From NCBI GenBank assembly GCA_977020255.1, contig CDROCS010000757.1, positions 62,001 to 126,000 on the forward strand: a stretch of 64,000 nt of DNA, given 5' to 3'. Of the stretch, positions 292-57,511 are shown in pieces. The notes under the pieces are model-generated. The model saw only the letters and a list, made by a program, of their open reading frames with translations. It made no database searches and was not told where the DNA came from. The stretch's first letter is position 1. Each line of letters opens with the position of its first letter. This DNA comes from Obrimoposthia wandeli. Lineage: Eukaryota. The position numbers and the translations under genes are program-made.

Positions 292-407
292 GACACACAT
301 GTACGAAATTTCCCTTTACAAACATAGACGTTTTAAAGGACAGTGGTAACCCCCTTACCCCAGGGTAGGGGGGAAGGGGTGGATTAGACCGGACATTTCC
401 ATCTACT
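292..407 (+). mobile_element. Solo Polinton/Maverick-type terminus, family A (right end, element lies to the left)
   Basis: The blocks GAAATTT...GTTTTAAAGGACA...GTGGATTAGACCGGACATTTCCATCTACT match the TIR of the 12938-13106 element. It ends CTACT at 407, directly abutting mariner coding sequence. Confidence 0.75.
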
Positions 408-2804: not shown

Positions 2805-3096
2805 AACACATGTAATCTCACCCGNNNNNNNNNNNNNNNNNNNNNNNNNNNNNNNNNNNNNNNNNNNNNNNNNNNNNNNNNNNNNNNNNNNNNNNNNNNN
2901 NNNNNNNNNNNNNNNNNNNNNNNNNNNNNNNNNNNNNNNNNNNNNNNNNNNNNNNNNATAGTATTTGTGTGATAAGTAGCACAAACTGACTTCTTAGAGG
3001 CATCAATGGCCTTTAGCCAAATGAGATGGAGCAATAACAGGTCTGTGATGCCCTTAGATGTCCGGGGCCGCACGCGCGCTACAATGGCAGTACTCA
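2805..3096 (+). rRNA. 18S: Isolated 18S rRNA gene fragment (pseudogene/orphon), central part is an N run
   Basis: ACTTCTTAGAGG...GCAATAACAGGTCTGTGATGCCCTTAGATGTCCGGGGCCGCACGCGCGCTACAATGG is a conserved 18S segment. Upstream of the Ns, AACAC..G.AATCTCACCCG is the metazoan 18S segment that normally lies about 130 nt earlier. Flanks are AT-rich non-rDNA. Confidence 0.9.
2825..2957. other. 133-nt N run (gap or hard mask)
   Basis: Seen directly; both flanks are 18S sequence. Confidence 0.95.
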
Positions 3097-3349
3097 AATA
3101 TTTTGAAAGTAAATTGCATATTTTATCCTCATAAATTTCGGGAATGTCGTTTATTGAGAAATAATTTTTTCATAATCTTCATTAAATCAGGAGACAATTT
3201 AATGTATAATTTATTCCAATTTATTTTATCATCCATATTATATAAACCTCATATATAAAATTGTTTATACTTAATATTTTTTATTTATTCAATAACAAAA
3301 TAATAATAACGATAAAAAAATCAAAAGAAACATATTTTTATAAAATTTA

Positions 3350-3664
3350 TTTTTAGACGAAAGACCCTTTTTGGATTGAATTTGAAGAATCCTTTTTCTT
3401 TCAGCTCTGCGTTTATCCTCCATCTCCACCTTTTTTAATACCAATTGACGTTTTTCCAAGTCCACCTTCTTATTTCAGTACATGACCCTTCTTCGTTCAG
3501 CAAGCAGGCCTGTCCCGAATATCAACCTTTCTATTCCACTCAGTCGCGACAGTAGCATACAAACTTTGATTCAAATACTTCTTTCGTAGGCCTCTTTTCT
3601 TTATATCCTTCCGGATATTCTCCTCTATCTTTGTGACAATCTGCTTCATTTGAATAAATTCCAT
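3350..3664 (-). pseudogene. Small Lys/Glu-rich ORF remnant with TATA box; homolog at 58350-58743
   Basis: Reads MEFIQMKQIVTKIEENIRKD...LYATVATEWNRK with frameshifts. TATATAAAA lies about 40 nt upstream of the ATG. It aligns by eye with MELPEMKRNLERIEKNYK...LYAARTEWKEK at 58743(-). Confidence 0.45.
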
Positions 3665-3856
3665 TTTTTTAAATAATGAAATGATAAATAAAGTTGAACC
3701 TTTTATATAAATTTGAAATAATTTTAATCCAATTATATTCTTTGAATAAATAAATGTTTAAAAGAAATTTTAAAGAAATTAACTTTAGTTAAATATATCT
3801 AAATAAAAAGGCAATGTTTAAACAAATTAAAAGAAAAAAACAACAAAAACTAAATG

Positions 3857-5342
3857 TTACTTCTTAAAAATTATATTTTTTTGAAAACATTTGACGAAGT
3901 CATCATAATGATCATTCTCATCAAGATCCCTCCGACATATAGGGAGATGTTCTAATAATACTGTCTGCTTCTTTTTGGTCGACCAGGCTTCTTCTTCGAC
4001 TGGACAACTACTGGTGCAGAAATTGTCGTCCAATTCTTCTTCCGTGGAGCCTTTTATTTTCTTCTCCTTCTCACGCTCCAGCTGTAGTGCTACTGCACCA
4101 TATTGTCGGTGGAAAACAGGATACATGGCCGGTTGCTGTGGACTCTTCAGTACTCCAGTACTGCCAGAAAATCGTGCAATCCAGCATCGAGTCAGGCCCT
4201 CTTCAAATTCCGGCTTGTGAATGCCACAGAAAGAAGAGATGCAGCCTTTCAAGCTATCGTCAAGTATTGACTGATGCTGGATTGCTGCTGAATAACAGGT
4301 GGTCTGATGGAATAGAGTTGACTAGAAATGTCTCCTGCAGATGACACTGGCTGGGAGGAGGAGTTATACTGATCGGAGCAACGGGTATTCTCTGGTACAA
4401 GATCGGCCCTTCGTCGACTGGATATTGTAGAATCTCCTGCATTCAAATCGCCACCTCGGTAGACTCGAGCAGATTGATGGTCACCTTCTTCTTCCTTTTC
4501 TTCTTGTGCACCACCGCTCGCTACTTGAACCTTGATGGAAGCCTTTCCCTGCAGGTTCTCCTTTAACTACGCTTGAACTGGTTCCTGCATTAAAATATAT
4601 TAATATTTTTTAAATATTAAAAAATCACCTCTATTATTGGTCATTTTGCCTGTTTTCACGTTCTTGCTTCGGACGATTTTCTGCATTACCTTGTGTATCT
4701 TCTGCACAACTGCTTGTTTCCGGTCCACCGATAATATAGGAGCCATCTCTTCTAACACGTCGGCTTCATAAATGAATAATTAATTATATTTTCTAAATAA
4801 TTTCCCCGAATTTTAACGAAGGACGCTAGATATCGCAGTTGAGTCCTTGGCAACTCATGGCTATATTGACTATCGATTATCTCTGGTTCTAGCAGTATCT
4901 CCACTGATTTCACCGACAGTGCCATATCCAGTTGAAGTTTCTGTATAAAATTCAAAATAAATGAATTAAATAATCCAACCTCATGTGTTGCCTTTATTCT
5001 CCTGCCTCGTCTTACGGGAGTCTGTGGCCTCCTGAATACTTCAGGCATTGTATCGTCTGCAGTAGTAGTCAGAGTAGCAGAAGAGGTAAGACCATCCCAT
5101 TCGTCCCATATTTGTCCAACGATGATTGAGTCGTTTGTGGCTGGAGCACTGTTGCTTACAGGCAGACTTGACGTGTACCACTCGTTGAGGAAAGGAGTGA
5201 GATTCTCTACTTTGTCAAAGTTGACCATGAAACTGTCACTGATTTGTCGGGCTACAGTATCGTATGGGAGAACCGGAGCCACGCCATCATATTCATCGAT
5301 GTAATGATTAAGATCCTGCTCCTGAGTCCCGCTTCTGCTCAT
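3857..5342 (-). pseudogene. Multi-exon low-complexity ORF of unknown function adjacent to a Polinton-type terminus
   Basis: GC-richer open frames (ORFs 4752..5342, 4249..4446, 3857..4252) are separated by short AT-rich GT..AG introns at 4941-4979 (39 nt) and 4585-4628 (44 nt). A third, degenerate intron lies near 4764-4805. Stops and frameshifts are present. Confidence 0.45.
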
Positions 5343-5607
5343 GCTTCATTATATTTCATACAACTCGTATCATTCGCCGTCGGTTCTTCGAAAAGATCCT
5401 CGTCAGCCTGGCCACCTTGACCACCATACTATTCACCGCCAGTAAACTGTTCTTGTGCAGTTGAAAAGTGTATGTATGTATGAGAACTTGTATAGATTTT
5501 TATATTGTTTGAGTAGGTCATGGAGTTATATAATAATACTGTTGCGCCCATTTTGGTCGCTCGGAGGGGCGCGTTGGGTTGGCTGCACCCACAAGGCATA
5601 AAAGCAT

Positions 5608-5693
5608 GAAATTTCACTTCACACACATGCACGATTTTAAAGGACGATGGGAAAGGGAGGGGGAGTGGATTAGATCGGACATATCCACCTACT
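5608..5693 (+). mobile_element. Solo Polinton-type terminus, family A (right end)
   Basis: GAAATTTCACTTCACACACATGCACGATTTTAAAGGAC...GTGGATTAGATCGGACATATCCACCTACT; followed by GATGCG. Confidence 0.85.
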
Positions 5694-9004: not shown

Positions 9005-9639
9005 AGTAGTGAGATATGATGACTTCGACTGATGGTTAAAGGATACCCCCTAGCAAAAACTGATTTTTTTAAATAAAATTGCGCGAAAGTTTTTTAGAAT
9101 TTTTTTTAAGGCAGATGTAGGTCAAGGTCAAGGTCAAAATTTTCTCGAGTAAATATGATATTTTAAGGTCAAAGTCATTTGAAAGTCATTATGTACTATA
9201 GTAGATCTATTTTAAGCTATTTTTTGTTTGGCGCGTATTCAAATTTCGGTTGATTCATGGTGTTTTCCCTCAAATTCTGAAGGTCATTAACAATTAAGGT
9301 TATAATTTTTTAAATTGCACATGTTTATAAAGTCAAGGTCATGATCTAGTATTTAAAAAGTTCTTTTGTTTTAACACATCAATTTTGATGCGCGCAAATT
9401 CAAAAGATTTGCGCGCGAAAACATATTTTCTAAGAAATTTTTGTAAAACTTATTTAAAAAAATTTCAACTACTTTTATTTGAGAGTAGAAAAAGTGTTTC
9501 TAATATTAAGGTATTTATTACACATAACTTGCAAAAGTACATTTTTAAACCTATGAGTTAAACAAGTAAATAGAGATAAAGAGAGATAGTAAAGAATAAT
9601 TTTTATTAAAGATACATACATTGTTACACAATAATCTCT

Positions 9640-10234
9640 TCATAATATCATAATCTTCATTACTTCGATAAATCTTCATTATCACAATCATTCTTCTCAT
9701 CAATGCAATCCTTCAGCAGCATGTTGTCTTCGTCATAATCCAGCATCTAATCTTCATTTCTTCAATCCTTCATCGCAATCATCTATCTTTTCTTCATCTT
9801 AATCCTCCATCTTCTTCAACATCCTCATCTAAAAATATTTATTTACAAAATAATTATCACAATCTTACCTGGAAATCTGACATCAATTCATCTTACCATC
9901 TTCGTCTCATCAATATAATCCATCATCGCAATCACTCATCTTATCTTCATTATCACAATCTCTCATCATTCATCTCATCATCTTCATTATCGCAATTTCT
10001 CATCTCATCATCTTCATTTCTGCTATCCTTCATCTTTCATCGCAATCATTCATTTTGTCTCCATCATAATCTTCATCTCAGCATTGCAATCCTTTATTAT
10101 CTTCATCTTGTCTTCATCGCATTCCTGCATATAATCTTCATCTTCTTCATCTTCATCATCTAAAAATAATTACTTACAAGATATTTAATGAAAACTTACC
10201 TACAATTGGAAATCAATTCATTATTAATCGCCAT
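9640..10234 (-). pseudogene. Decayed spliced Asp/Glu/Cys-rich repeat ORF (DCDNED-like repeats), partly duplicated in the right TIR (11923-12230, +)
   Basis: Begins ATGGCGATTAATAATGAATTG, followed by two about 40-nt GTAAG..TTTTTAG introns. Exon fragments include DDEDEEDEDYMQECDED, RNCDNEDDE and KDCIDEKNDCDNEDLSK. Many frameshifts. Confidence 0.5.
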
Positions 10235-10589
10235 ATTGTATTTTCAAATTTTATTGTTGATTATTTTCAAAATTAATTATTTAAAATAAAATCAATTATG
10301 TTTTAAATTACTAATATAAATAATTGGAAATATTTATTAAGTTAAAATCGTTAATATATTTTATTAGTTACTTAAATTACTAATAATATAATTTGAAATA
10401 TTTATTAATTATAATAATCAATACATTTTAAAATATGCAGAGAAATATATATATTATGTATTGATTCATACATGTTCAAAGAGGGAAATTAACAAGGTGT
10501 TTACAGAGGAGAATTCCCCGAGAAGGGTTATTTAGTGATATTATTCAATTGTTTATCCTTTGAAGCTTGATTCTAATTGGCTGATGATG

Positions 10590-11340
10590 TTGTTTATGTA
10601 AATGACATAGAAGACAAATTGATGGATCAGATGAGATATTAGCCAGATGGTTCTAGAAGATAAATTTATGATATTTAAAAGATTTAACGAGAGTATTGCT
10701 TTCAGAAGAGATAAAATGTAGTCTTAAAATGGGTTTACAGGGGATTTATCAGGGGTGTTGATTACAGAATAGAAATTATAACCTGTAAAAGGGTTCAGAG
10801 GGTGATTCAAGATGTTTCAGAAGAGGAAATTAGTAGGTTTTAGAAGAAAATTTAGATATTATCAACTTAGAAGGATTTTAGAAGGGAAACTTACGTAGAA
10901 GACAAATTGTTGGTTCAGAGGTGTTATTACCCAGATGACTCTAGAAGATAAATTTATGATATTTAGATGGTTGATAAGCAATTTCAGGAAATTATTTAAT
11001 AGAGATACGAAAATAAATTAACAAGGAAATTGAGGTATGTAGGTGATTAAGAAGAGAAAATATAGAAAGAGGACTCAGAGAGGGAATTAATGGGAGAGTC
11101 CATGGGTTTCAGAAGATAATTAATAGTCTTTAAAGAAGGGTTCAGATTTTTACCCAGATGGTTCTAGAAGATAGAATTAGGGGTTTTAGAAGCAAATTTA
11201 AGCATAGATATTAACAATTTAACAAGAGTTTAGAAGGGAAAATAACATAGAAGTCAAATCACTGGTCAAGAGGAGATATTACCTAGATGCTTCTAGAATA
11301 GAAATTGATGATATGTAGGTGATTAAGAAGTAAATTCATG
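10590..11340. repeat. Degenerate purine-skewed internal repeats (about 230-350 bp period)
   Basis: The motif (C)CAGATG..TCTAGAAGATA(A/G)A(T/A)TT recurs near 10640, 10930, 11155 and 11283. TAGAAG(A/T)CAAAT recurs near 10608, 10896 and 11248. Confidence 0.6.
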
Positions 11341-12937
11341 AAATGTATGATATTTAGAAGATATGGGTAACAGAAATTAACAAGGTGTTCAGGAAATTAA
11401 TGATATTTAGGTTTAAGCATAGATGATTAGTTACTTTTCTTCTACTTAATCCCCTCAACCACCACGAGATTAACCTCTTCTTAACCTCCATATTATTATT
11501 CTCTTCTTAGAGCAGAAATTATGTGTTATTTTATGTCCTATCTTTATCATAATTTCTAACATAAAGATGGGATACATGATTCGAATAAACAATTTAGCTG
11601 TAAGACCCTCTGATATAATTCCTCTATTAAGTCACAGTAATTTAGGTAAAGATACTCAGAGTATGTTTCGGTTAGAATATTAGCAGTCAACCTGTTAGGG
11701 TAATTCGAGATATCATTTCCGCATACTTGATAATTGATTTATAGTATAACTCTGAAATTGATCCAAGACAGTTGAAGTATCAGTTATATATAATATCCTA
11801 TCTTTATTTGATAATTTCTATATAAATGCATTCCCACTGAAGCCGATTAGTTATATATAATGTCTGCTAAATAAGGAGTCTCTGAAATTGATGAGTTAGA
11901 AATTATTATGAATTATAGGATAATGATGGATTATATTGATGAGACGAAGATGGTAAGATGAATTGATGTCAGATTTCCAGGTAAGATTGTGATAATTATT
12001 TTGTAAATAAATATTTTTAGATGAGGATGTTGAAGAAGATGGAGGATTAAGATGAAGACAAGATAGATGATTGCGATGAAGGATTGATGAAATGAAGATT
12101 AGATGCTGGATTATGACGAAGACAACATGCTGCTGAAGGATTGCATTGATGAGAAGAATGATTGTGATAATGAAGATTTATCGAAGTAATGAAGATTATG
12201 ATATTATGAAGAGATTATGGTGTAACAATGTATGTATCTTTAATAAAAATTATTCTTTACTATCTCTCTTTATCTCTATTTACTTGTTTAACTCATAGGT
12301 TTAAAAATGTACTTTTGCAAGTTGTGTAATAAATACTTTAATATTAGAAACCCTTTTTCTACTCACAAATAAAAATAGATTCAATTATACAAAATAAGTT
12401 TTAAAATAAAAAAATTCAGTTTAACAATTTATAAAACTTTTTTTACTCTCAAATAAAAGTAGTTGAAATTTCTTTAAATAAATTTTACAAAAATTTCTTA
12501 GAAAATATGTTTTCGCGCGCAAATGTTTTGAATTTGCGCGCATCAAAATTGATGTGTTAAAACAAAAGAACTTTTTAAATACTAGGTCATGACTTTGACT
12601 TTAAAATCATATGCCATTTTAATAATTATGACCTTAATTGAGAATGACTTTCTGAATTTGAGGGAAAACACCCTGAATCAACCGAAATTTGAATACTCGC
12701 CAAACAAAATTGATGCATTTTAAAAAATTAGCTTAAAATAGATTTACTATAGTACATAATGACCTTCAAATGACCTTGACCTTAAAATAACATCTGCCAT
12801 AAAAAAAAATTCAAAAAACATTTCGCGTAAATTTCAAAAAAAAATTGAGTTTTCGCTAAGGGGGTATCCTTCAACCATGAGTCGAAGTCATCACATCTTA
12901 CTACTTCGGTGTGTTGAAATAATTGTTGATAGACAAC

Positions 12938-13106
12938 AGTAGGTGGATGTGTCCGGTCTAATCCACACCCCCCTTGTCCTTTAAAACCGTGCATGTGTGT
13001 GGAGTGAAATTTCACTCCACACACCTACACGAAATTTCACTCCACACACATGCACGGTTTTAAAGGACAAGGGGGGTGTGGATTAGACCGGACACATCCA
13101 CCTACT
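12938..13106. mobile_element. 169-bp palindromic mini-Polinton (MITE-scale), family A
   Basis: Perfect 76-bp TIRs (12938-13013 and 13031-13106) with a 17-bp spacer. Termini are AGTAGG..CCTACT. The 6-bp TSD GACAAC is at 12932-12937 and 13107-13112. Confidence 0.92.
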
Positions 13107-13789
13107 GACAACCTACTCGAATTGTTAAAACTTTTACCGTTGGTGTAATAATATAATTCTTTTCTACAGCTGACTAGATTAATTTCGGGTACCCACATAT
13201 CGTTGTAGAGCCATATCAACCACGTTACACAGCACACTACATTAGTGGGAACCACATCAATTATATTTGTGAACACAACTCTGTATACACCTGGCAACAC
13301 AATAGCAAAAAACCTTCAGATTTGAGACTGAGTTAAGCAAGACAAACCAAAAATAGGCCACGTCCATCTGTAAGCCCTATTGCTACAGAACTCTCCAGTT
13401 CAATACAATCAGAAATCGGTCATGTTTATCATCAATCAGACAGTCAATGTTTGAGTGCATTAATGTAGGCCAAATGAATATATCATATATCAAGTTTATC
13501 ATAATTTAAAATATCCAAGATTTCATAAACTAGGCATGTGCACTCTTTTGGCTCGAGGGCTACATATTACCTTTTCCTATGGTTTTGGATTACACTTGAA
13601 ACAATATATTTATTAATTATAGATGCAATTATTTTAATGTGCAAAAATGGTTTGGTTAAAATTTATTAAAATTTATTCTGGAAAATATCTGATCCCACAT
13701 GTATGTGTTTTCAATTTTTTTTTATGAAACCTCTTTTTGGGAGGATTCTTATAAAGCTGTAGCAAGAAAAATTCTTTGAAGATGCATTT

Positions 13790-21889: not shown

Positions 21890-22620
21890 TGCAGGTGCCG
21901 ATTATACTATATTTGCAAGTTTATTCAAATCACCTCTTCTATATTCCATCTGAATGTCCAAGCTACTTAAATCATTTATCCAAGTCTGGAATTGGGAAGG
22001 AATCGATTTTGTTGTTCTAAGCATGAACGTTATGGCTTTGTGATAAGTTCTCAGTTTGAATCTCTTTCCATATAAATAGTGGTTGAAATGCTGACAGAAA
22101 TAGTAAATTGCTAATAGCTCTTATCTTGTAATGCAGTATCCCTTTTCATGCGCATTCTTTGCCGGTTTCTCCGACTTGGGACAACATCGCTCCGATTGCG
22201 TTGATATTAACATCGGTGTCCAGAATGAATTCCTTTGTAAAATCTGGGAATGCCAAATTTATTCAATATTGCAATTTTTGTTCTCAGTATACAAAACGTT
22301 TGTGTTTCGGCATTATTTCCATATCACATATAAACTTGTAAAAACGTTGAAATAGCAACAAAAATTAAAAACGTGGTTCAGCAGGCCCAAATATTTCCAT
22401 TTTGACAAAAAAGAAAGTAATATTCTCACCTCTACATGAAACGATGTCTGAAGGAGACTTATTAAAGAAGCTATTTTTAAAATTTGGAAATACAAAGGCC
22501 GTTTATCGGAACCTCATCAAAGATGACAATGTCAAATTCGAAAAGAATTCTTTGTTTTCATTCCAAGATCTTGACAATATTTTTCCTGTCACCTTGCTAA
22601 TTTCCCAGGATATCTTCGTG
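21890..22620 (-). mobile_element. Ty3/Gypsy pol remnant (RNase H, traces of RT)
   Basis: Minus strand reads LAFPDFTKEFILDTDVNINAIGAMLSQ...ELLAIYYFCQHFNHYLYGKRFKLRTYHKAI, a Gypsy RNase H segment. KYLG lies upstream. Confidence 0.85.
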
Positions 22621-27023: not shown

Positions 27024-28753
27024 AGTAGGTACTTTGATGGAGTCTAGATCACTGGGGGGTCACCCTCTTGTGTGCGTACACCATGTTAAAGGGTGTCACT
27101 CCATAAGGGTGTCACACCATAGGGGTGTCACACCATAGGGATGTCACACCATACGGGTATATGTTGCCTTACCATAGGGGTGTCACGTTTCATAAGGGTT
27201 ATGTTGACTCACCATAGGGGTATCTTGCTACACCATAAGGGTCTGGCTCAGAAAGGTTATGAAGGTTTGAAGGTATGGTCGTGACCGTCTATGGTCGGCC
27301 AACATACCCAAGGTGTTGTGGTCGTTCATAGGTGAAAGGGTCGGACTCAGTTTTGACTTGAATGTTTGAAGGTATAATTAAGGTCTACTATGATTGTCCA
27401 TCACATCTAAAGGGCCATGGTCGGTCATAGATGAAGGGGTCAGGCTAAAGACAAAATCAAGTTTAAAATATCATGGTTGGAATTATCTTTAGAAGACGAA
27501 TTATTCCATAAAGATATAGTTGTTCATAGATGAAGGGTTTAAAAAAATTGGAATTTCATAGTTTCAAGTACATGGTTGTATTTGGCAACATATTACGAGT
27601 TTATTCATGTAAACATTTTATGGTCATCCACAAGTTAAGGGTCAGATTTGGAACAAACATGATAATTGTATTACATAGTTGTATTTGTCTATGAAAATTG
27701 AGTTCAAAGATACCCTTAAGGTCATGCATACTTTTAATTAAGAGGTCCTGGTGAAAAATACTTGTAATTTCAAAAAATAATATATTTTTAAATTTAAATT
27801 TGTGCCAAATTTTTTATGGTTTCTATTGATTTAATTAAACAAATTTTAATTTAACGGGTTTTTTTAAATAAAATATTAAAGGAACATTATTTAAAATAAA
27901 TATTAAGGAAAATGTTAATAAACTCAAATTACTTTACTAACAGTATTTTTTTCTTCTCATAAATATTTAAATTTATGCAAATTTTTATCCATTTTATTAA
28001 TGTAATTAAACAATTTTGTTTAATAAAATTAAGATTTCCTGGTGGAAAAAAAACTTGTAATTTTGTTTTATTCAAAATTAAATTTGTGCCAATTTAATTT
28101 GTTAGATATTATTAAAGTTAAACAAATTTTAATTTATCAGGTTTTTAAATAAAATATTAAAGTACCAAACACATCTATAGTAATCAGTCAATTATTCTAT
28201 GTGAAAGTTAAAGTTCACTCTTATCAGTTAAGAAATGTATTACGTAATAATAATAATACACACTATTATATGTGAAAATTTAGATCAAAGTTTTTTCCCA
28301 GGCTTACGCATCTAAAGAATTATGGTAACATTTCTTTAATTAACTGTAATTATATGTCATGCATACTTTAAGGGGTCCTGGAAAAAAATACAAATACTTG
28401 TAATTTTCAAACAAATAAATATATATTTTTAAATTTAATTTGTGCCAAATTTTTCATTGTTTCTTTGATTTAATTAAACAAATTTGATTTTAAACATAAG
28501 TATCAAACAAATGTTAATTATAAAATAAAAGAAATAATTAATAATTTGATAAATATCATCTTACCACAAGTTATTCATCGAATCCATTGATCATATACCC
28601 TTATGGTGTGACACCCCTATGGTGAGGCAACATATACCCTTACGGTGTGACATCCCTATGGTGTGACACCCTTGTGATGTGACACCCTTTAACATGGTGT
28701 GCTCACACAAGGGGAACCCCCCAAGTAGTCTAGACTCCATCAAAGTACCTACT
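27024..28753. mobile_element. Non-autonomous Polinton/Maverick-type element, family B, 1,730 bp
   Basis: Both ends read AGTAGGTACTTTGATGGAGTCTAGA (25 bp identical, inverted). The 6-bp TSD AAGGAC is at 27018-27023 and 28754-28759. TIRs of about 160-210 bp contain CATAAGGGTGTCACAC arrays. The interior has about 100-bp (27320-27540) and about 320-bp (27720-28490) direct repeats and no ORF of note. Confidence 0.9.
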
Positions 28754-31824: not shown

Positions 31825-31928
31825 TGTTGCTTTTTTCAAAATTTCACTCCACACACATGCACGGTTTTAAAGGACAGTGGTAGCCCCCTGGGGGAGGTGG
31901 TGCATTAGACCGGACATATCCACCTACT
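31825..31928 (+). mobile_element. Solo Polinton-type terminus, family A (right end)
   Basis: AAATTTCACTCCACACACATGCACGGTTTTAAAGGACAG...CATTAGACCGGACATATCCACCTACT; followed by AAAATA. Confidence 0.85.
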
Positions 31929-34149: not shown

Positions 34150-34770
34150 TTCAATTATATGTCTGAAGAGTTAAAACCGAGCAATCAGTTTTAATGGCAC
34201 ATAGTATAGGAATGGAAAAAAACAATGCTTGTTATCCTATTAGAGAAACTAAACGTATAACCTACTCTTTAGGATTGGGTACACAAGCTTTTAATAAGGA
34301 TAACAATTTTGGTGATGTAAGATTGCAGAAATTTGTTTTAATTTCATTTCAAAAAACTTTACGGTTTCTAGGAAATTATACGACAGATGCAACTCAATTT
34401 GACAATCTTAATGGGGTTCAGTGACACTTTCAAAAAATATCGATTATCGTAAAACCTATAAAACAGATTTCGAAGGTAACGCTTATGCTTTGGCTTATAC
34501 GCAATATATTATTCAAAATTTGGTCAACTAGATAAAAATATAAACAATGGTATTTCTTTCACTGAGTTTAAAAGCAGCTGCCCCTTCTTCACATTTGTTT
34601 TGGCACCAGACTTTGATATAAACCAATGCCAACTACCAAAGGATGGAAATTTACGACTAGAAATTAAGTTCAATACAGCTTTAACACATCCTACTACGGT
34701 GCTTATATACGGAGTATTTGATTCAGAAATACAAATGAACAACAACAGATCTATTTGGTTAATATGGTGG
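34150..34770 (+). pseudogene. Polinton/Maverick (adintovirus-like) major capsid protein, C-terminal fragment, frameshifted
   Basis: Reads VLMAHSIGMEKNNACYPI..QAFNKDNNFG..FLGNY; KTDFEGNAYALAY; NGISFTEFKSSCPFFTFVLAPD..KDGNLRLEIKFNTALTHPTTVLIYGVFDSEIQMNNNRSI. This follows the recalled family pattern AKYPI..AFxGxY..YxxAY..GI..F.F.LTPD..GNLRLExKF..L....VIVYxEFx..IxIx.xR. Confidence 0.8.
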
Positions 34771-36651: not shown

Positions 36652-37226
36652 AGTAGGTACTTTGATGGAGTCTAGACCTCTTGGAGGGTCCCCCTTGTGT
36701 GCGCACACCATGTTAAAGGGTGTCACACCATAAGGGTATCACACCATAGGGATGTCACACCATAAGGGTATATATTACCTCACCATAGGGTGTCACACCA
36801 TAAGGGTATATGTTACCTCACCATAGGGTGTCACACCATAAGGGTGTCTCACCATAAGGGTGTCACGCCATAGGGATGTCACACCATAAGGGTATATGTT
36901 ACCTCACCATAGGGTGTCACACCATAAGGGTGTCTCACCATAAGGGTATATGTTACCTCACCATAAGAGTGTCACACCATAAGAGTGTCACACCAGAAGG
37001 TGTCACGCCATAGGGATGTCACACCATAAGGGTATATGTTACCTCACCATAAGGGTATATGTTACCTCAACATAAGGGTGTCACACCATAGGGATGTCAC
37101 ACCATAAGGGTATATGTTACCTCACCATAAGAGTGTCACACCATAAGAGTGTCACACCAGAAGGGTGTCACACCATAATGGTGTCACACCATAGGGATGT
37201 CACACCATAAGGGTATATGTTGACTC
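36652..37226 (+). mobile_element. Solo family-B Polinton-type left terminus with expanded subterminal minisatellite
   Basis: Begins AGTAGGTACTTTGATGGAGTCTAGAC, preceded by CAAGTT. About 510 bp of 15-23-bp units follow (CATAAGGGTGTCACAC, CATAGGGATGTCACAC, CATAAGGGTATATGTTACCTCAC), then an abrupt truncation. Confidence 0.88.
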
Positions 37227-38627
37227 AAAAATTAGATGAGATTTTTGGGTACCTTAAAAATAACAAATGCCGCTTTGAAGATGAGCCGTTGATATTATTT
37301 TCTCCTCCGCATCTACGGTGTGGCATCTACAGGGAAACCCAAGATCAACTGTTGTAATCAGTTCCATTGGCTAATACGACTTCGATTTTTATTGCTTTTA
37401 GTGAAGTGGAACAATTTGAATTTGAATGATGTCTCAAATTAGTTTAAGGAAAAAGATCAAAAATTAAATATCGGTAAAAACAGTTTGTCCTCATTTTATG
37501 TTAACCCTGACAGAAGAACTTCTCGTGGATGAATGTAGTGGTGACTGGACTGCTTATAGGGCCTCCTTCATATGAAAAGTAAATTGTATGGTTTTCCTTT
37601 CATTAGTGTCAATGTCTGCTTCATAATCCCCGCCTATTTTCTCTGCATCTGCAACCACATATAACTCTCACAAATAAACTAACCAAACACTGTTTCAATT
37701 GTCAAGATCCTAATGATGTTTCTCACTCAGGATGACAGAATCAAACAGAAGGGAATATTATGCTTTTCTCAATTTTAATTTTCCTTTTATCTCGTTTTCT
37801 CTGTACTGTTTCTGTTGAAGATAGAACATTTTGCTTTTCATTTGCCTTGTCGACAAATATGGCAATAGAAAAGTGGGATGCTTCGTTTATTCAGTTTTCC
37901 TATTTGTGATTCACATTATTTGAATAATCATGACTCATCAATTTGTTGTACTTTTAATTTGATTTGATAGCTAAATTACAATTTAATTTTTTTTATCATT
38001 TTGTGAGTTTGTGCTGAATTTAGATTGGTATTTTATCAATGAGAACAATTCAATATTTCTAGTTTTTATTGACGCTATTTGTAAACTGTCCGTTTAATAT
38101 TAGATGTTTAGTCTATTTTGAAGCAAGCTAACCAAACTAAATTGAGGCTTGGATTTTTTTATATATTGAAACATGAACGTGTTATGATTGTATTCAAGGG
38201 CTATGTTAAAAATGAGTTTTGTGAATCTATAAGAAAGATTTAGAAAAAATATATAAATATTGAAAAAAAAAATACGAGTAAAAATAAAAATAATAATGAA
38301 TTTCATAAATTTATGGACATACACATTTATAAAACGGGAAGAACATTTTGTGTGTACTTTTAATGTGTCAGAGAATCAAAATTAATGCCATAATAAAAGC
38401 TGATTATCAGCATAGAAACTAATAAAAATGCACTTTTTACAATCTATCGGACGTTTTGGACGCATCTTTGGGTACTACAAAGAAAATGAAGTAATTTTAT
38501 TCATTTTCATTTAGCAGAAGAGAAATGAAATTAGTCTTAAACTACGATGGACATTTCACTTCGTGAACGAAATCAGAAATTGTAACATTTAGGGTATTTT
38601 TGCCCAATTCAATGTTTTATATATATA

Positions 38628-40489: not shown

Positions 40490-42215
40490 GTGAGTTCCTG
40501 ATACTTCATTCTAGCAACTATATAAGCTGAGACTGAAATGTACGACTCGTCGATCAAACCCCATTCACTACATGGTGTAATTTGTGTCTGCTTTACTTTT
40601 GACATAATATCCGTAAGATGAGAGTGTTTGATTGATTTGAATGTACTAGAATGTTGCGTGAGTACGCTTCAAGTCTTCTGATTTCAGTCATCAGTCATAA
40701 TCTTCTGACAAGCACAATAAACAACACCACAGTTGAACATGGGGCGCAATTGAATATACCCAGCCTTAATATAGTCACTAATTATCATATAAATGTACAT
40801 TATTTTGATTTTTCAACTTATTCACCTTTTGCTTACTGCTTACGTTCTTTCAAAATGCTAATCAGTTCAGAAATATTCCACACGATTTGTTTAAATCAGT
40901 GATGTAAAACGTTGTTTGTAACGTAACGCAAAAACGAAATAGCAAAATAATTTATCGTTAATTGGCAAAATTATGTTACATAACGGTATAAAATTTTAAT
41001 TATGTTAAAATAACGAAAATTTAGTAACGCAAACGCAAAAAAAATCAGTATACATTTTTGTTATTGCTAAATAATAATTCCTTTCAATTTTACTGAGTAA
41101 AATTAGCACCCAGTCAGAATAGTATTGTTTTTTAATTTGTGATTTAAATATTATTTTATTATTCTGTATTAATATTCGATTTTTCTTTAAATTTAAAAAA
41201 AAATTATAACTTTAATATAATAACTTTGTTTTTATAACTTTTTAACGCAATGAATTTTCTTTTTCGTTTTATTACGAAATAACGTAATTAAAAAAATTCA
41301 TGATATCTGTATATAACAAAATGTGTAATGCTATAATTTTTTTTTCGTTTTCCATCTTGAAATTAAAAATGATGATAAATTCACCGCTTTACTATTACTG
41401 TTTTTCGTTTTTAGCTTAGAAATAGGGGTACTTATAGTACTTTTACACATTTTTAAAATGACATTTAATATTTAATTTTTTGTTAGTTAAAATTATATTT
41501 TTCAAATTTTAATTTTATTTTTGAACATTATAGTTTATTTCACCTTATTTTATATAATTCATTGTGTATTTTTTTGAAACTTTTATTATTATATATATTT
41601 TGTGTATAAACTTTATTTTTAAAATTTGTATAATAATTATAAGACAAATAATTGAATATATCAAACACAGAACTAAAACTGTTTTTAAATGTTTAAAGAA
41701 GTTTTTTTATATCTGTCGAAATATGAACCCTGTTTAAAAATAATTTTGAAGAAACACCAAGAAAAAATTAATCAAAGCACATTTCCATAAAATTTAGTCT
41801 ATCTGAAATTAGAATTGAAATATGATATTTTGATAATGTGTGGGTCAAGATCCAGATAACATTAAAAAGCAGTTTTAAACAATTTTTGACCAAATATTCA
41901 GAACACCTGTTTTGTTTGACAATTTGATAATGAATATTATTAACATCTTTGTAATATAAAATGCGAAAATAAAGAATAAATAAAAAAATGCAGAGAATTA
42001 CAGTAATTATTCACCTATAAGGGGTCCTACCTATAAGCAGGGCCGGATTAACCCCTTTAGGTGCCCTAAGCACTTACAAGATTTTAGTGCCCCCTATATA
42101 TATAAGTAATTCAAAATATAAATAAAAGTAAACTATAAAATTTTATTTTTCGAAATGAAACAAAACTTACAGTAAGATAAAATATAATTTTTATGTAAAT
42201 ATATATACTTTTACT

Positions 42216-44894
42216 TCATTTATATTTGAAAATTTTTCTCCTACATTTTATAATTGCAAAGTCTTTGATAAGATCCTCAAAACTAATCTTGTGTAACATA
42301 TCTGCTTCTATACTTAGTAGAGATAAGTCATCCAGCCTGCCTTGTTGCATAGTTGTTCTTTTGGCATTTTTAATATTCTTCAACTGGGAAAATGAACGCT
42401 CAGCTGAGCAATTTGTAACCATTAATGTTAAAAATATTCGAAAGGCAATTTCTACATTTGGGAATGCACACTCAATATTGTCTTCTACAATTATTTTATA
42501 AAGTTCAGCATGACTGAATCTTGTTTTTACATTATCTTGTGCACTGAATTTATGGCACACATATGAGTGAAACTGCTGAAGCTCAACAGATAAATTAATG
42601 TTCAAGTCCTCTGGGTAAGCATCAATCATATTTTTGCAACCCTGAGAATACCTTTCAATTTCAGTAGATGATGAAGTAACATTATGTGGCACATCACTTA
42701 GACAAGAAAATTTCTCTGCTATTTCTTTGTATATTTCTCCTCTTTTTCTCATCTCAGTTTTAAGTCTGTCAATAATTGTGTAAAAAGGTGGTGATTAAAA
42801 AGTTATCTCTGTTATTCAAATACACTTCTGGTGCATCTCCGTCATTTGGTACCTTCTTTCTGATTCGTTTGCGAGTTTGAGCTGTCTTGTAATCAACATC
42901 TGGTAGCATTTCCTTTGTAGCTGCTTCATATCTTTGAAATTCATCTCGTGAAGTGCACAGTTGGTCAGCTAAAGATTCATACAGATCTGCACTTGTTTTT
43001 AAATTTACATCCTCATTCTGTAGAATTTTGCTCACTCTATGAAAATTTTGCAAAATCTCACCCCAAAAATTCAACATAAAAACGAATTCTAGCTCTTGCA
43101 TCTTGCTTGCAATATTATTTGCTTCTCTTCTAGTGTCTCCCTTTTGATTCTGGTCTTCAGTTATACATTCTAACGCTTCTAAAATTTGAAAAAAGGATTT
43201 CAAAATTGCTGCTATTGCCATTGCATGTGCCTCCCATCTGGTGTTAGATAGGATTTTTAAAACACTTTCATTTCCAATACAACATTTAAGAATTTTCCAC
43301 CTGCTAGTTGAGGCTGAAAAAAAGGTATAGAGCAACTGTACTGTAGAAAAGAAATTAACCGCCTCTTGACAGCAATCAACAGCACTTCGACCTACCAGAT
43401 TTAGTGAATGAGCTGCACAGGGCACATATATAGCAAACTTGTTTGTTTCTAAGATTATTTGCTGCATCCTTATAACGCCCGGACATGTTGGCAGCATTGT
43501 CGTAAGATTGACCCCTACATTTTGAAAAGTTTAGCTTACAAACTTCTCGTAAGTACTGCAACACCTGAATTGCCATTTCCTCGCCAGTATGACTTTGCAT
43601 TTCCAAAAGGTTAAGAACCGTTCAATAGGTTGTCCATCTTTTAAGTACCTAAGTACAACACTTAACTGATCGATATGTGATAGATCTGGTGTTGAATCAA
43701 CAGATAAACTAAAATAACCAGACAATTTTACTTCGTCAATAATGAGTGTGTGGACCTTTTGAGCCATTAGATGAATGAGTTCCTCACAGGTGGTTTTCGA
43801 TAGGTAAGAAGGATTTCCTTTGCCAGAATTTCCATATTTCGAAATGTGACCTGCTAAAAATGGATCAAACTGGCTTATGAGCTCAAGCATCCCTAAAAAT
43901 TCCCATTCTGCAATGATCCAAATCTTTCTTCTGTTCCTCGAAAAGCCAAGCCACGTTCTGCTAACGTACAAATAACAGCTATGACACGCCTCAAGACATG
44001 TTCCCAGTAATTACATTCTTCCTGAATTTGTTTTTCCAACTGTTGTCCCAACCCCGCACCTTGTCTGCGAGTTAAGTATGTTAGCATAAAGTCTCGGTGA
44101 CTAATGCTTTTTTCATGATGATCAATTACAATAGTATTTCGCCAGTCACTAAACCCTTCTCTGGTAACAAATTGTGAGACATTTTTAGGAGCAAAAAGTT
44201 TACAAATATAACAGTAAACTGATCCTGTTGATGGTGAATACAATAACCACTCTCTCCTGTATTTTTCACCATTGGCTTTTGTTCCAATGAAAAGATTTTG
44301 AGAACAGTATCTTGATGGTTTGCCACTACTAAAGTGCCGGTAAGACTTGTCAAAAGGCCCATTGTGGTGTTGACAGTCACTGGGTCCACAAGCAATCCAA
44401 TAAGCCACATCATTATCAGAGAAATCTAGCCACAACCCTGGATCTTTTGCTATATTTACTTTATCTTTTGCAGACTGATTCATTTCACCACCATCACCAT
44501 GGTCCGCTATACTTTCATTTTCAGCAATTATTTCAACATCAGAAAGGCTTGTAAAGCAACTTGAATCAACATTTGTAGTAGATGTATCAAGATTATTTAC
44601 AGGCAAAGTGAGATCATTGAGACATGTGGTAGATGAACCTGCTTGTGACACCTCAGTGATTCCAACATCATTAGGTTTTAATTTTGAAGTGATCAAAGTG
44701 GTATTTGTGTCCAATTCTGATGACGGAGATTGGTTTTGATTCAGAATCGGTATATCATGTTGACGTTGTGGTCGAGGAACTTGCGTGAAGAAATCAGTAA
44801 GCTTTACAGTCTTGGGCATTAAATCCAAAGTCTTTTCTTGTTTCTCTTTTGATAGTTTTCGCTTTTGCGCACCACTTAATTGAATACGTTTCAT
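42216..44894 (-). pseudogene. hAT transposase, four frameshifts, no in-frame stops in the coding path
   Basis: Motifs in order: REWLLYSPSTGSVYCYICKLF (TTF zinc finger), GLAFRG, LSVDSTPDLSHIDQLSVVLRY, GQSYDNAANMSG, CAAHSLNL, TRWEAH, CSAERSFSQLK (dimerisation domain). They are spread over five overlapping ORFs. Confidence 0.93.
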
Positions 44895-45275
44895 CTTAAT
44901 CTTGGGTCTGTAAAATAAAGATAATTTTATTAGATATTATTGTATATAATGTGGCAATCAACACAGTTACAATATCATATTCTTGGCATACACAACCAAA
45001 ATGGGAATTTAAATATAAATGGCAATTAAATTTAACTCAACGGAAATATCAACTCAAAATGTTGAATACAAATTAAATCGAAAGAAGGAACCGAAAGAAG
45101 GAACCAAACCTATATATAAAATAAAAATACTTAACATTAGAATTAATGAACCGCAATCTATAAACATATCAATATTAACAGGACACATTTTATATTTACA
45201 TTTATTTATTTAAAATAGAATATTTAATTATAGAAAACATGAATAAATAAATTATAAAATATATTCATATTTATG

Positions 45276-45408
45276 CAGGGCCGAATTAAGAGGGAGCTGA
45301 CTCGGCTATAGCCCCCAAAATTAGTTACACTATTATCATTATGATGTAAGGGCCCCTGTTTGAATTACAGCCAGGGCCCCCACCCCATGCAACCTTAATC
45401 CGACCCTG
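45276..45408. mobile_element. 133-bp hAT-type MITE nested inside the hAT element
   Basis: Inverted ends CAGGGCCGAATTAAG / CTTAATCCGACCCTG (13/15), similar to the host element TIR. No exact 8-bp TSD is visible. Confidence 0.55.
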
Positions 45409-45899
45409 CATGTATATACTATTAAAGTACACTTAATAGACTTACCCTAAAGCAAAGGGAGAAAAACATCAAGGTGCCCCTATAATCCGAATTTGTTTCT
45501 CGTTATATATGAATCATATGAACTATTGGTATATTATAAAATATATTTTGTAATTTTTTCAATAACATTTTTAAAAATTATGAATTTGCACATTATTTGG
45601 CTCTATAAAAAAAATTATTGTATAATAAATCCAATGTAAATCCAACAATAATTTTTTTTGTGGTGCCCCCTTTCCCTTGATGCCCTAAGCACGTGCTTAT
45701 ATTGCTTAATGGTTAATCCAGCCCAGCCTATAAGGGTGTCCGGTCACCGAAAATTTCACGCTTCACCTATAAGGGTGCCCATAAGTGCCTATAAATAATG
45801 CATCTATAAGTGATTCGGTGTCGGTCTCTCTCAAAAACATGTTTTAATGAATACCCTTACAGGTGAATAATTACTGTAGGATTTCTTTCATGATCACAA

Positions 45900-46400
45900 A
45901 AGTTTTGAATTGAATTCTGGACTGACCTTCGAAGTTGTGCTCGGTATTGGGTATGGCTGGCAAAAACTTGGCACTTTATCAATGTTTGTTCAAAGTCCAA
46001 GTGTTAAAGAATTGTTCATTTAATAATTATTTTCCTGTAGTTTGTCTCGTACATTTAATTCCATTGATGATTTGGTTCCAGATGCAGACCTACAAAATAT
46101 AAAAAATTATTTATTTCATATCTAAATAATATGTTTTAGATTCATTTAGTTTTGCACTTTTAAAATATGCTCAGCATTAATGAGAACCGTCGACTGAGGA
46201 GGAAGAGTGGCAATTCCTTGAACTTTTAGTGGATGACCTTCTGCTTCATTAGCCAGTAAACATGTAGTCGATGAAGGTAAGAACATTTTCTTGGTTAGTG
46301 AAGAGTCAATAATGTCTTTAGATTTTGCATTTCTAAGTAGTGCAATTATAAGCCCACTTTCATTTTGTTGATCAGCTTTGCAGTTGTGAAATATCCTTCA
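45900..46400 (-). mobile_element. Probable Gypsy protease/RT-start remnant
   Basis: ALLRNAKSKDIIDSSLTKKMFLP..AEGHPLKVQGIATLP resembles a decayed retropepsin; FCQPYPIP resembles an RT N-terminus. Confidence 0.4.
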
Positions 46401-46796: not shown

Positions 46797-46855
46797 CGTT
46801 GCTTTTTCAATTTTTTTCTCCGGGGGGTGGATTAGACCGGACACATCCACCTACT
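46797..46855 (+). mobile_element. Solo, internally deleted family-A terminus (right end)
   Basis: GTTGCTTTTTCAA (shared with 31826) ... GGGGGGTGGATTAGACCGGACACATCCACCTACT; followed by ACAGTG. Confidence 0.8.
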
Positions 46856-50616: not shown

Positions 50617-50906
50617 ATCAAATAAAAATATTGAAATTGTTTGTCGCTTCAAGTAATGAGTTGTTAAGTTTTAAGAAAGCCAAGCAATTGCTGTTAAAGG
50701 TGTAATGAACGCAACAAAAATTGAGTGTTTCAAGATGCTTTTAAATCTAAGTTAGACCAAAAAATATTCACGAAACTGTTTTTTCTAAATCTGCTAAAGT
50801 AATCTAGAAAGAAACTGAAAATGATTTACCAATATGGAAAACTTGAACGCTTTTTTTGTTAAAAATCGTGAGACATTGGAAATAATATATATTTAATTTA
50901 TAACTA

Positions 50907-51551
50907 GGGAATGTTTTGGATTCGAAATGACAAATTTATTTTAAATTCATACAATAAAATTATCATAATTCAATAAAAACTTCTGTATAGTTTTATCAAT
51001 CCATATTTAATAAATTAAAAATTATTAATGTTCAATTTTTACTATAATTTTATTAATTTGTATTATTTTATTATATATTCACGAATATGATTAAGATTAA
51101 CTAATTTATTTTATTATTATTTTGTACATGTATCGACTTTCCTATTAGCTCAATCTATTTTAATATTTTCAAGAAAAAAAAATAATCCTATTAATAACAA
51201 AAAATATGCTTTTTTCAGACTACCCAGAACAAGAAAAAAATGTTTTCGAACAACTTTTTCGGAACAGAGGGAGTAATAAATTAACATTTATTAAAATTTA
51301 TCATGTGCGTTATTATATAAATAAATAATCAATAAAAATTATCTTTAAAGATAAAATAGTTTCCAAAGTAATTTGCAATATTATTTTAATATAACAACTC
51401 ATAAAAAATATATTTAACTGTATACATTAATGACTTATAACTTAATACAGATGAACCAACTATAACAACTATACATAAGTTCTTATAAAATTAAATTAGT
51501 TTATTATATAAATATCAAACAGTTTTGTCATTTCGATTCAAAAATATTCCC
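50907..51551. mobile_element. AT-rich MITE-like element with GGG..CCC termini (PIF/Harbinger- or Zator-like)
   Basis: GGGAATGTTTTGGATTCGAAATGACAAA and the inverted TTTGTCATTTCGATTCAAAAATATTCCC; TSD not preserved. Confidence 0.5.
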
Positions 51552-51699
51552 TTGAAAATGCTTTCTTTAATATGACTTGTCTATTGATTGTGGTGTGCAG
51601 TATTCAAATTTATGCTTTACCAACAGCATATTTATATTTAGTCAGATTATTTCTTCTAAAATAATGAAATCCGGCTTTTTCAGTTAAGTCAAACTTCGT

Positions 51700-56362: not shown

Positions 56363-56557
56363 ATGGATAAACTTAACGAAGCAACAGCGATAGCAGCAAC
56401 AAAAAAGTAAAAAATTATTGAAGAAACTATTGAGGAAGTGAAATCAATTATTGAAGTGAAATCAATTATTGAAGAAAAACAACGTACAGAATTCTTAAAT
56501 GCTCTGGCTTTTATGGAACCCATGATAGCTGATGTTTCCAGTATGGAGATCATATGA
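56363..56557 (+). pseudogene. Small acidic ORF with one internal stop and a 21-bp tandem duplication
   Basis: MDKLNEATAIAATKK*KIIEETIEEVKSIIEVKSIIEEKQRTEFLNALAFMEPMIADVSSMEII*. Confidence 0.3.
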
Positions 56558-57164
56558 CCCAAAATTTTGTTAGTTTGTTTAGAGCTAGATTTAGTTATCT
56601 CAGAGCAGAAAGATTAAACAGAACTTCAATGAGCAAGATTTTAGTAAATCAATTATACATATATTATACATGTATATTGAAAATTATCGAGATAGAATTG
56701 ATAAAACTGAGCTTCTAAAACCAAATTTAACCGTGTAATCAATACATATATGGTGGATAAGATAAGAGGATACGTTTATCTTTGTAAATTCGAAGTTAGG
56801 GAAAAAATATTGCAATAAAATAGACAGACTAATAATATAATTAAAGTAACTATCAAAAAGCAGGAGAATGTTTTAGTATGTTGTCATTATGAAAGTTTAC
56901 ATACTGTTTGTTTTGCTATTGCATTTTTTTGCATATATTTATTGCATCTCTTTCAATGGGCGTTAGCACTGCCACCAATCTTGTTAAAACTAAACGTAGT
57001 ATTGCTGCACCTAATGAAACTATGCTTAATCAGATACGTTATCATTATCATATATATAAATTGTATTCTTTATGAATCTTTATTAGTCAGTGTCTTTCAG
57101 CATCCAATCATATTTTAGTTGTATAGTATATAAACAGTTCACATTTTACTCCTACTTCATTATT

Positions 57165-57383
57165 ATGTCTACTCCCAATTATTTCAAGCAAGATGTTGAC
57201 AAGGCAGTGAAGAAATTCATTTTGAAAAATCTTATAGAAGAAGATGTCTTGAAACTCATTGAAGCAACGGATCTGCCTCTGAAGGAGCATGTTAGAAGAA
57301 GTCCGTCAATCTTCTCATTCTGGGCTACAATAAGAAGAAAGAGAAGAAGCAGAAGAGCTTTTTCTAAGAAAGAGTTTTTTTAA
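57165..57383 (+). CDS. Compact 72-aa ORF with basic C-terminus (RRKRRSRR), unknown function
   Basis: TATATAAA at 57127, ATG at 57165, stop at 57383, AATAAA at 57407. Intact frame. Confidence 0.4.
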   Translation: MSTPNYFKQDVDKAVKKFILKNLIEEDVLKLIEATDLPLKEHVRRSPSIFSFWATIRRKRRSRRAFSKKEFF

Positions 57384-57511
57384 TTATTTATTGGTGGATG
57401 TATCGTAATAAAGTATTTTAAGTAACTTTGTTTTAAAAACATTATCCCAACACTAATAATTTTAATATGGATTTAAAAAATAATTCAGTTTTTTTTCAAA
57501 TTGTAAGGCCT

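What the first reader, a model, noticed from the sequence alone, without database searches (positions are those of the whole stretch)
12938..13106. 169-bp perfect hairpin element: possibly a minimal Polinton replicon
Seen: two identical 76-bp inverted arms, a 17-bp spacer and TSD GACAAC. A second perfect 30-bp palindrome (12995-13024) overlaps the junction, and the 19-mer GAAATTTCACTCCACACAC is directly repeated (13006-13024, 13031-13049). Inference: this looks like a copy-back or deletion product joined at the palindromic GAAATTTC core, i.e. just two origins head to head. Its TSD shows it was integrated as such, defining at most 76 bp per end as sufficient in cis. Zero arm mismatches implies a recent insertion or replication-coupled homogenisation.
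Basis: partly seen in the sequence, partly recalled or inferred. Interest (0 to 1): 0.82.

Follow-up and report, generated by a model that had tools for sequence, protein, structure and literature searches.

The report
Tiny hairpin remnant of Polinton-type transposon
A 169-base piece made only of the two ends of a virus-like transposon joined back to back; it is real and young, but whether it ever moved on its own, which is what would make it informative, is not shown.

Summary
The arm belongs to a family with four more ends in the window. In the three comparable ends, similarity stops at the GAAATTT core, so 76 bp is about the family's shared terminal module. The palindrome and direct repeat come from one event: an 11-nt snap-back at GAAA/TTTC joined through ACACAC to the other end, which keeps about 12 nt of parent sequence. 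This is the published signature of synthesis-dependent end joining. Polinton affinity is likely but indirect: AGTAG ends, 6-bp TSDs in 3 of 3 complete elements, and an unlinked capsid remnant. No polymerase or integrase is linked. The TSD does not show that the 169-mer integrated as such, since deletion in place keeps a TSD too. Only one copy is in the window. 'Replicon' and '76 bp per end is sufficient' are unproven. Verdict: a MITE-like, ends-only derivative of a Polinton-type family; mobility about even odds.

The parts
12932..12937 (+). left copy of the 6-bp target site duplication GACAAC
12938..13013 (+). left arm, 76 bp, starts AGTAGG; the family-A terminal module
12938..12966 (+). conserved block 1 of the arm (26-29 of 29 identical in the four other family-A ends)
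12967..12974 (+). C-rich spacer between the blocks, 8 nt here, 18-35 nt in the three comparable family-A ends
12975..13012 (+). conserved block 2 (38, 35 and 25 of 38 identical, ungapped, at ends 31928, 5693 and 407; absent at 46855)
13006..13013 (.). self-complementary core GAAA/TTTC, the inferred fold-back primer; similarity among family-A ends stops here
13014..13018 (+). net templated insertion ACTCC, the reverse complement of arm positions 64-68
13019..13024 (+). ACACAC, the reverse complement of arm positions 58-63; inferred microhomology used for the join
   Evidence: the paralogous end at 407 carries ACACAC at the same place
13025..13030 (+). CTACAC, the only 6 bases not derived from the arm; probably parent interior kept next to the right arm
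13031..13106 (-). right arm, 76 bp, perfect inverted copy of the left arm
13107..13112 (+). right copy of the target site duplication
293..407 (-). related family-A end without a partner in the window; its continuation past the core matches the mini element's right-arm continuation at 9 of 12 positions
5607..5693 (-). related family-A end, followed inward by GC-rich sequence with open frames of no known family
31839..31928 (-). related family-A end; block 2 identical to the mini element's
46822..46855 (-). related family-A end with block 1 only (29 of 29 identical)

Best explanation
A non-autonomous, ends-only derivative of a Polinton-type family ('family A') whose shared terminal module is about 76-100 bp. 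SHOWN: it consists of two family termini, a 6-bp TSD and 6 non-arm bases, and its junction parses exactly as a snap-back join. INFERRED: a longer parent lost its whole interior in one event. A 3' end at GAAATTTC folded on itself, was extended 11 nt along its own arm, unwound, and annealed through ACACAC to the opposite end about 88 nt inside the terminus. The polymerase could be the host's end-joining polymerase or the element's own polymerase acting on a panhandle intermediate. INFERRED, least certain: because both conserved terminal blocks are intact at both ends, a helper Polinton's integrase then inserted the 169-bp unit here, as a MITE would be inserted. Protein-primed replication of the unit is possible but is not needed to explain anything seen.
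For: Anatomy exact. 163 of 169 nt are arm-derived. Snap-back parse exact, with the structure described for snap-back SD-MMEJ in PMC2943611 (passages). The right-arm continuation matches the 407 end at 9 of 12 (0.00027 per random site; 6 comparisons made, the other five gave 1-5 of 12). Both breakpoints fall at the inner edge of the module shared by 3 of 3 comparable ends. All 3 complete AGTAG-ended elements in the window have a perfect 6-bp TSD. Six-bp TSDs, TIRs of 46-1447 bp and (AGT)2 ends are reported for Mavericks (PMC8097293, passages). A double-jelly-roll capsid remnant of Polinton type lies at 34152-34761. Arms look younger than the TIRs of neighbouring elements, which are 80-96% alike. 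Polinton derivatives lacking polB are reported as still active in butterflies (10.1101/2025.02.07.637071, passages).
Against: Only one 169-bp copy in 64 kb, so amplification is not shown. The junction signature is that of a chromosomal repair pathway, which fits collapse in place at least as well. No family-A end is linked to a polymerase, integrase or capsid gene: 0 of 211 frames of 55 aa or more hit such Pfam families, although that scan also missed the capsid remnant, and the remnant lies outside all mapped ends. The terminus is AGTAGG, 5 of 6 matches to the reported (AGT)2 motif. None of the four other family-A ends has a partner end or TSD in the window. The pre-existing microhomology is inferred from a diverged paralogue, not from the parent.
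Confidence: 0.42

Rival explanations
1. Same origin, but the collapse happened here: a longer family-A element inserted at this site, then lost its interior by snap-back end joining after an internal break, an aborted gap repair, or cleavage of the loop of a TIR stem-loop. The 169-mer never moved and says nothing about cis sufficiency.
For: A TSD survives internal deletion. The junction fits snap-back SD-MMEJ, described for chromosomal break repair. Single copy in the window. The region is full of truncated ends. A TIR stem-loop would place both breakpoints at the TIR edge without any selection for mobility (inference).
Against: It needs insertion and near-total deletion within the short time allowed by 0 of 76 arm differences (under 3.9%). 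A random internal deletion would rarely leave only about 12 nt of interior (inference). A multi-copy element is more likely to be met in one window than a one-off product (sampling argument).
Confidence: 0.35
2. A MITE or deletion derivative of some other DDE transposon that makes 6-bp TSDs, not of a Polinton.
For: No linked Polinton gene. The interiors next to family-A ends have no identified relatives. The end motif is an imperfect match to (AGT)2.
Against: The other 6-bp-TSD group named in the passages read, IS3EU/GingerRoot, has TA..TA (sometimes TG..CA) ends (PMC10045372), not AG..CT. The neighbouring element 9005-12905 has exact (AGT)2 ends, about 0.9 kb TIRs and a 6-bp TSD. Families A and C share AGTAGGT and GTCTA at positions 19-23.
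Confidence: 0.15
3. Assembly or library artefact: a fold-back chimera, or a long element collapsed between its identical ends.
For: The assembly has a gap at 2825-2957; perfect inverted repeats are hard to assemble; reads could not be seen.
Against: A fold-back chimera would continue the inversion into the flank. Here it stops at the termini, the flanks match at only 12 of 30 and are joined by a direct 6-bp repeat. The 8-bp palindrome in the related ends is too short to bridge an assembly (inference), and the 30-bp palindrome occurs in no other copy in the window. The junction keeps parent-like bases.
Confidence: 0.05

Closest known systems
Polinton/Maverick elements (Polintoviricetes), as described in PMC8097293 and PMC10748475 (passages read)
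   Same: 6-bp TSD; AG...CT ends with an AGT-type start; TIR length within the reported 46-1447 bp range.
   Different: 169 bp instead of 13-25 kb; no pPolB, integrase or capsid gene; terminus AGTAGG rather than AGTAGT; link to an autonomous partner not shown.
Non-autonomous Polinton derivatives: polB-less active polintons of Pieris (10.1101/2025.02.07.637071, passages), 'TIRs only' Polinton sequences in C. elegans (PMC11414722, passages), and the gene-less non-autonomous Polinton families of Kapitonov and Jurka 2006 and Repbase (recalled; paper not held)
   Same: Ends kept, core genes lost, dependent on a helper if mobile.
   Different: The Pieris elements still carry genes and the C. elegans TIR is 744 bp; this one has essentially no interior. 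The recalled families were not checked.
MITEs and internal-deletion derivatives of TIR transposons (Ds, dSpm, deleted P elements; general knowledge)
   Same: Short, non-coding, TIRs plus TSD, junction with microhomology and templated filler.
   Different: High copy number, the defining MITE trait, is not shown; the putative parent is a self-synthesising virus-like element rather than a cut-and-paste transposon.
Snap-back SD-MMEJ repair junctions (PMC2943611, passages read)
   Same: Adjacent 4-bp inverted primer repeat, insertion equal to the reverse complement of upstream sequence, newly made microhomology.
   Different: There the junctions came from defined breaks; here the pre-break sequence is inferred from a paralogue, and a template switch by the element's own polymerase would leave the same trace.
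Snap-back or copy-back defective genomes and ITR-only minichromosomes of linear protein-primed viruses such as adenovirus (recalled, no call)
   Same: Two origins joined head to head with the interior lost.
   Different: This one sits in a chromosome with a TSD; replication is not shown.

Membership tests
Polinton/Maverick | 6-bp target site duplication | tested here: met
   GACAAC on both sides; chance about 0.001; feature from PMC8097293 and PMC10045372
Polinton/Maverick | Terminal repeat motif (AGT)2//(ACT)2 or (AG)3//(CT)3 | tested here: inconclusive
   Ends are AGTAGG//CCTACT, 5 of 6 matches to (AGT)2; the neighbouring element 9005-12905 has the exact motif. The motif was reported for vertebrate elements; the host of this window is unknown
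Polinton/Maverick | Terminal inverted repeats (46-1447 bp in intact vertebrate elements) | tested here: met
   76-bp perfect arms; range
Polinton/Maverick | Encodes protein-primed PolB and retroviral-type integrase; 13-25 kb | tested here: not met
   169 bp, nearly all arm sequence; 0 of 211 frames in the window hit such Pfam families. It is therefore not filed as a Polinton, only as a probable derivative
Non-autonomous Polinton derivative | Termini shared with an autonomous Polinton of the same genome | not testable with these tools
   No eukaryotic genome collection on hand; two scans of the prokaryotic collection gave 0 hits each; the capsid remnant in the window is not linked to a family-A end
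MITE | Short, non-coding, TIRs and TSD | tested here: met
MITE | Many dispersed copies of uniform size at different sites | tested here: inconclusive
   1 such copy among 5 family-A loci in 64 kb; rest of the genome not available
IS3EU/GingerRoot (6-bp TSD) | TA..TA (or TG..CA) termini | tested here: not met
   Ends are AG..CT; feature from PMC10045372
Snap-back SD-MMEJ junction | Short inverted primer repeat, insertion that is the reverse complement of upstream sequence, inverted repeat spanning the junction | tested here: met
   against PMC2943611
Snap-back SD-MMEJ junction | Microhomology present on the far side of the break before joining | tested here: inconclusive
   Inferred from the 407 end, 9 of 12 matches; the true parent is not in the window
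Minimal protein-primed replicon | Replicates as a linear episome when polymerase and terminal protein are supplied | not testable with these tools
   No sequence test exists for this

The most novel reading that the evidence does not exclude
The 169-bp hairpin is one copy of an amplified Polinton MITE family: a natural mini-genome of two terminal modules that helper Polintons integrate, and perhaps replicate by protein priming. It would map the cis signals for Polinton mobility to two short blocks (positions 1-29 and 38-75) within under 100 bp of each end, and show that these virus-like elements carry their own tiny parasites.
Probability: 0.3. Interest if true: 0.65.

Novelty: new variant of a known kind. 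Interest (0 to 1): 0.38.

Why it matters
The cis requirements for Polinton integration and replication rest on analogy with adenovirus and on sequence inspection (PMC8097293, passages, says the end motifs 'would be expected' to act so). A dispersed family of 169-bp ends-only copies would be a natural deletion experiment that bounds those requirements. The comparison of five family-A loci already points to a two-block terminal module with a variable spacer. If instead the element collapsed in place, it is an ordinary though very clean repair scar, useful only as an example of how a long-TIR element shrinks to a palindrome.

Tried and rejected
Partner ends and TSDs for the four other family-A ends: none found. 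Two pattern scans of the prokaryotic genome collection, in case of contaminant copies: 0 hits each. Identity of the sequence next to family-A ends: no relatives for 3860-4321 or 46149-46397; one weak repeat-like hit for 4755-5345, not pursued; no usable atlas hit. Rfam at gathering threshold: 0 matches in the window, so a structured-RNA gene was dropped. Capsid relatives: Pfam and PDB sequence searches were blank and a single-sequence fold failed (pLDDT 31); the alignment-based fold worked. The empty-site flanks matched no other copy across the junction, so the insertion could not be confirmed against a paralogous target. The idea that the CTACT at 13113-13117 is the end of an older element: no partner with a matching TSD. 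An internal hairpin at arm positions 6-11/24-29 is broken in the 407 and 31928 ends, so it was not kept as a feature. My recollection that PMC5788539 describes miniature Mavericks was wrong (0 occurrences). Ten literature searches listed no paper describing a 150-200 bp hairpin Polinton derivative. The library lacks most subscription journals, and the defining 2006 paper and a Repbase review were not held, so this is weak evidence of novelty. No supplements were read; they could list such small families.

Full report
1. Observation. Every stated feature is present at the stated coordinates: 169 bp, arms 12938-13013 and 13031-13106 complementary at 76 of 76 positions, a 17-nt spacer, GACAAC on both sides, a maximal 30-bp palindrome at 12995-13024 and identical 19-mers at 13006-13024 and 13031-13049. 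As single-stranded DNA it folds to one stem at -99.3 kcal/mol, z = -25.5, 0 of 200 shuffles as good. A matching 6-mer pair has a background of about 0.001. Among 4 perfect hairpins with arms of 15 bp or more and spacers up to 100 nt in the window, only this one exceeds 15 bp.

2. Family context. The arm has four more relatives in the window, ending at 407, 5693, 31928 and 46855, all right-hand ends on the + strand. None has a partner end or a TSD in the window. Two blocks are shared: positions 1-29 (26, 27, 27 and 29 of 29 identical) and 38-75 (25, 35 and 38 of 38, ungapped; missing at 46855), separated by a spacer of 8 nt here and 18-35 nt in the others. In the three ends that have block 2, similarity to one another and to the mini element stops at or just past the GAAATTT core, and their interiors are unrelated. 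So 76 bp is not an arbitrary truncation: it is about the whole module that family-A ends share. Two other complete elements with AGTAG ends have perfect 6-bp TSDs: 9005-12905 (TCGGTG), which ends 32 bp before the mini element, and 27024-28753 (AAGGAC).

3. The junction is one event. 163 of 169 bases are covered by arm-derived 8-mers; only CTACAC (13025-13030) is not, and removing one 25-nt unit leaves a perfect 144-bp palindrome. Read inward from the right terminus, the 12 bases after the core match the same stretch of the 407 end at 9 of 12, against 0.00027 per random site; the other five of six such comparisons gave 1-5 of 12. The right end therefore probably keeps about 88 nt of parent. The left end parses exactly as GAAA/TTTC fold-back, insertion ACTCC (reverse complement of positions 64-68) and ACACAC (reverse complement of 58-63), which is also what the 407 end carries at the matching place. 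This is the structure given for snap-back synthesis-dependent microhomology-mediated end joining in PMC2943611 (passages and figure legends read). The 30-bp palindrome and the 19-bp direct repeat both follow from those 11 copied bases. A template switch by the element's own polymerase would leave the same trace, and a parent with a native 25-bp tandem repeat joined by a plain 8-bp microhomology deletion is not excluded, because the true parent is not in the window.

4. Is it Polinton-type? For: intact vertebrate Mavericks have 6-bp TSDs, TIRs of 46-1447 bp and (AGT)2 or (AG)3 ends (PMC8097293, passages). The 9005-12905 element has exact (AGT)2 ends; families A and C have AGTAGG. IS3EU/GingerRoot also make 6-bp TSDs but end TA..TA (PMC10045372, passages). 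A broken gene at 34152-34761 matches 54 proteins, most of 400-420 aa. One of these scores 0.98 to arthropod and nematode clusters with the DJR-like domain on 15-30% of members and folds (pLDDT 88) like double-jelly-roll major capsids; that this is the Polinton capsid family rests on those results plus recall that F54H12.2 is a nematode Polinton gene. The GC-rich stretch inside the 5693 end recalls the GC-rich, intron-bearing cargo next to the TIR of nematode Mavericks (10.1101/2022.07.12.499685, passages). Against: the capsid remnant lies outside all mapped ends; 0 of 211 frames of 55 aa or more hit a polymerase B or Polinton integrase family in Pfam (the scan also missed the capsid remnant, so its sensitivity on fragments is low); and the frames beside family-A ends have no identified relatives. 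I put Polinton parentage at about 0.8. The element itself fails the coding test and is not filed as a Polinton.

5. Did it move as a 169-mer? The TSD cannot say: an element that inserts and then loses its interior keeps its TSD. Zero differences over 76 bp bound arm divergence below 3.9% (95%), while the TIRs of the two neighbours are 80-96% alike; zero mismatches has probability 0.004 at 7% divergence but 0.47 at 1%. So it is young, but homogenisation is not shown. For movement: both conserved blocks survive intact at both ends, almost no interior is left, and multi-copy elements are more likely to be sampled. For collapse in place: the repair-type junction, the single copy in 64 kb, and the fact that a TIR stem-loop would itself direct breaks to the TIR edge. 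I judge these close to even (0.42 versus 0.35 overall). Even if it moved, the bound is the whole 169 bp, with three copies of the 19-mer, not 76 bp per end; and integrase-only movement needs no replication, so 'replicon' remains a hypothesis.

6. Artefact. The inversion stops at the termini; the flanks read outward match at 12 of 30 and are joined by a direct repeat, which a simple fold-back chimera would not give. Reads were not available; I leave 0.05.

7. Comparison with what is known. Non-autonomous Polinton derivatives have precedent: polB-less active elements in butterflies (10.1101/2025.02.07.637071, passages), 'TIRs only' Polinton sequences in C. elegans (PMC11414722, passages), and gene-less families in the defining 2006 paper and Repbase (recalled; not held). 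In anole lizards such copies were apparently absent (PMC3014272, passages). General Polinton size and TSD ranges came from PMC10748475 (passages) and the racket-shaped intermediate from PMC4196379 (passages). Passages of PMC8504770, PMC11662393, PMC11296320, PMC5499653 and PMC5788539 added nothing on miniature derivatives. Ten searches listed no description of a 150-200 bp hairpin derivative; one search found 8 papers and listed 5, four of them mentioning C. elegans PALTTTAAA repeats, which I did not read. Given the library's gaps this does not establish novelty.

8. Verdict. Real, young, cleanly built, and explained by one snap-back join between the two ends of a probable Polinton-type element. 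It is a new variant of a known kind. Interest 0.38, rising to about 0.65 if a genome search shows dispersed copies with the same junction.

Noticed in passing
window 9005-12905: Complete 3.9-kb non-coding element with exact (AGT)2 ends, about 0.9-kb TIRs (80-96% alike) and TSD TCGGTG; it ends 32 bp before the mini element, hinting at a local insertion hotspot.
   Followed up: partly
window 27024-28753 and 36652-37227: A third AGTAG-ended family: one complete 1.7-kb element with TSD AAGGAC, and one orphan end followed by an array of about 28 copies of a 16-bp subterminal unit. It shares AGTAGGT and GTCTA (positions 19-23) with family A.
   Followed up: partly
window 34152-34761 (+): Broken, partial gene for a double-jelly-roll major capsid protein of Polinton type, not enclosed by any mapped pair of ends.
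   Followed up: yes
window 407, 5693, 31928, 46855: All four orphan family-A ends face the same way and have unrelated interiors; no partner ends were found. The same orientation has a 1 in 8 chance.
   Followed up: partly
window 2958-5600: Inside the 5693 end: GC-rich blocks alternating with AT-rich blocks, suggesting a spliced cargo gene on the minus strand with no identified relatives. About 3030-3085 looks like an 18S rRNA fragment (recognised from memory; Rfam gave no match at gathering score). An assembly gap lies at 2825-2957.
   Followed up: partly
window 46800-46855: This end has block 1 intact but lacks block 2, and then weakly resembles the start of the 31928 interior (0.6% of random windows score as well): possibly a short deletion of block 2.
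   Followed up: partly
window 13111-13117: The seven terminal bases ACCTACT recur four bases beyond the right end, overlapping the TSD (about 0.002 per 20-nt window, noticed after the fact). No partner end with a matching TSD was found. Unexplained.
   Followed up: partly
window 41999-45878: hAT-type element with 25-bp inverted ends and transposase frames in pieces (Pfam hAT dimerisation and DUF4371), lying about 1 kb inside the 46855 end.
   Followed up: no
window 21905-22120, 60316-60480: Retrotransposon RNase H fragments.
   Followed up: no
window 55284-59074 and 50906-51552: Two more inverted-repeat-bounded stretches of other families, and a small perfect hairpin at 45607-45659.
   Followed up: no
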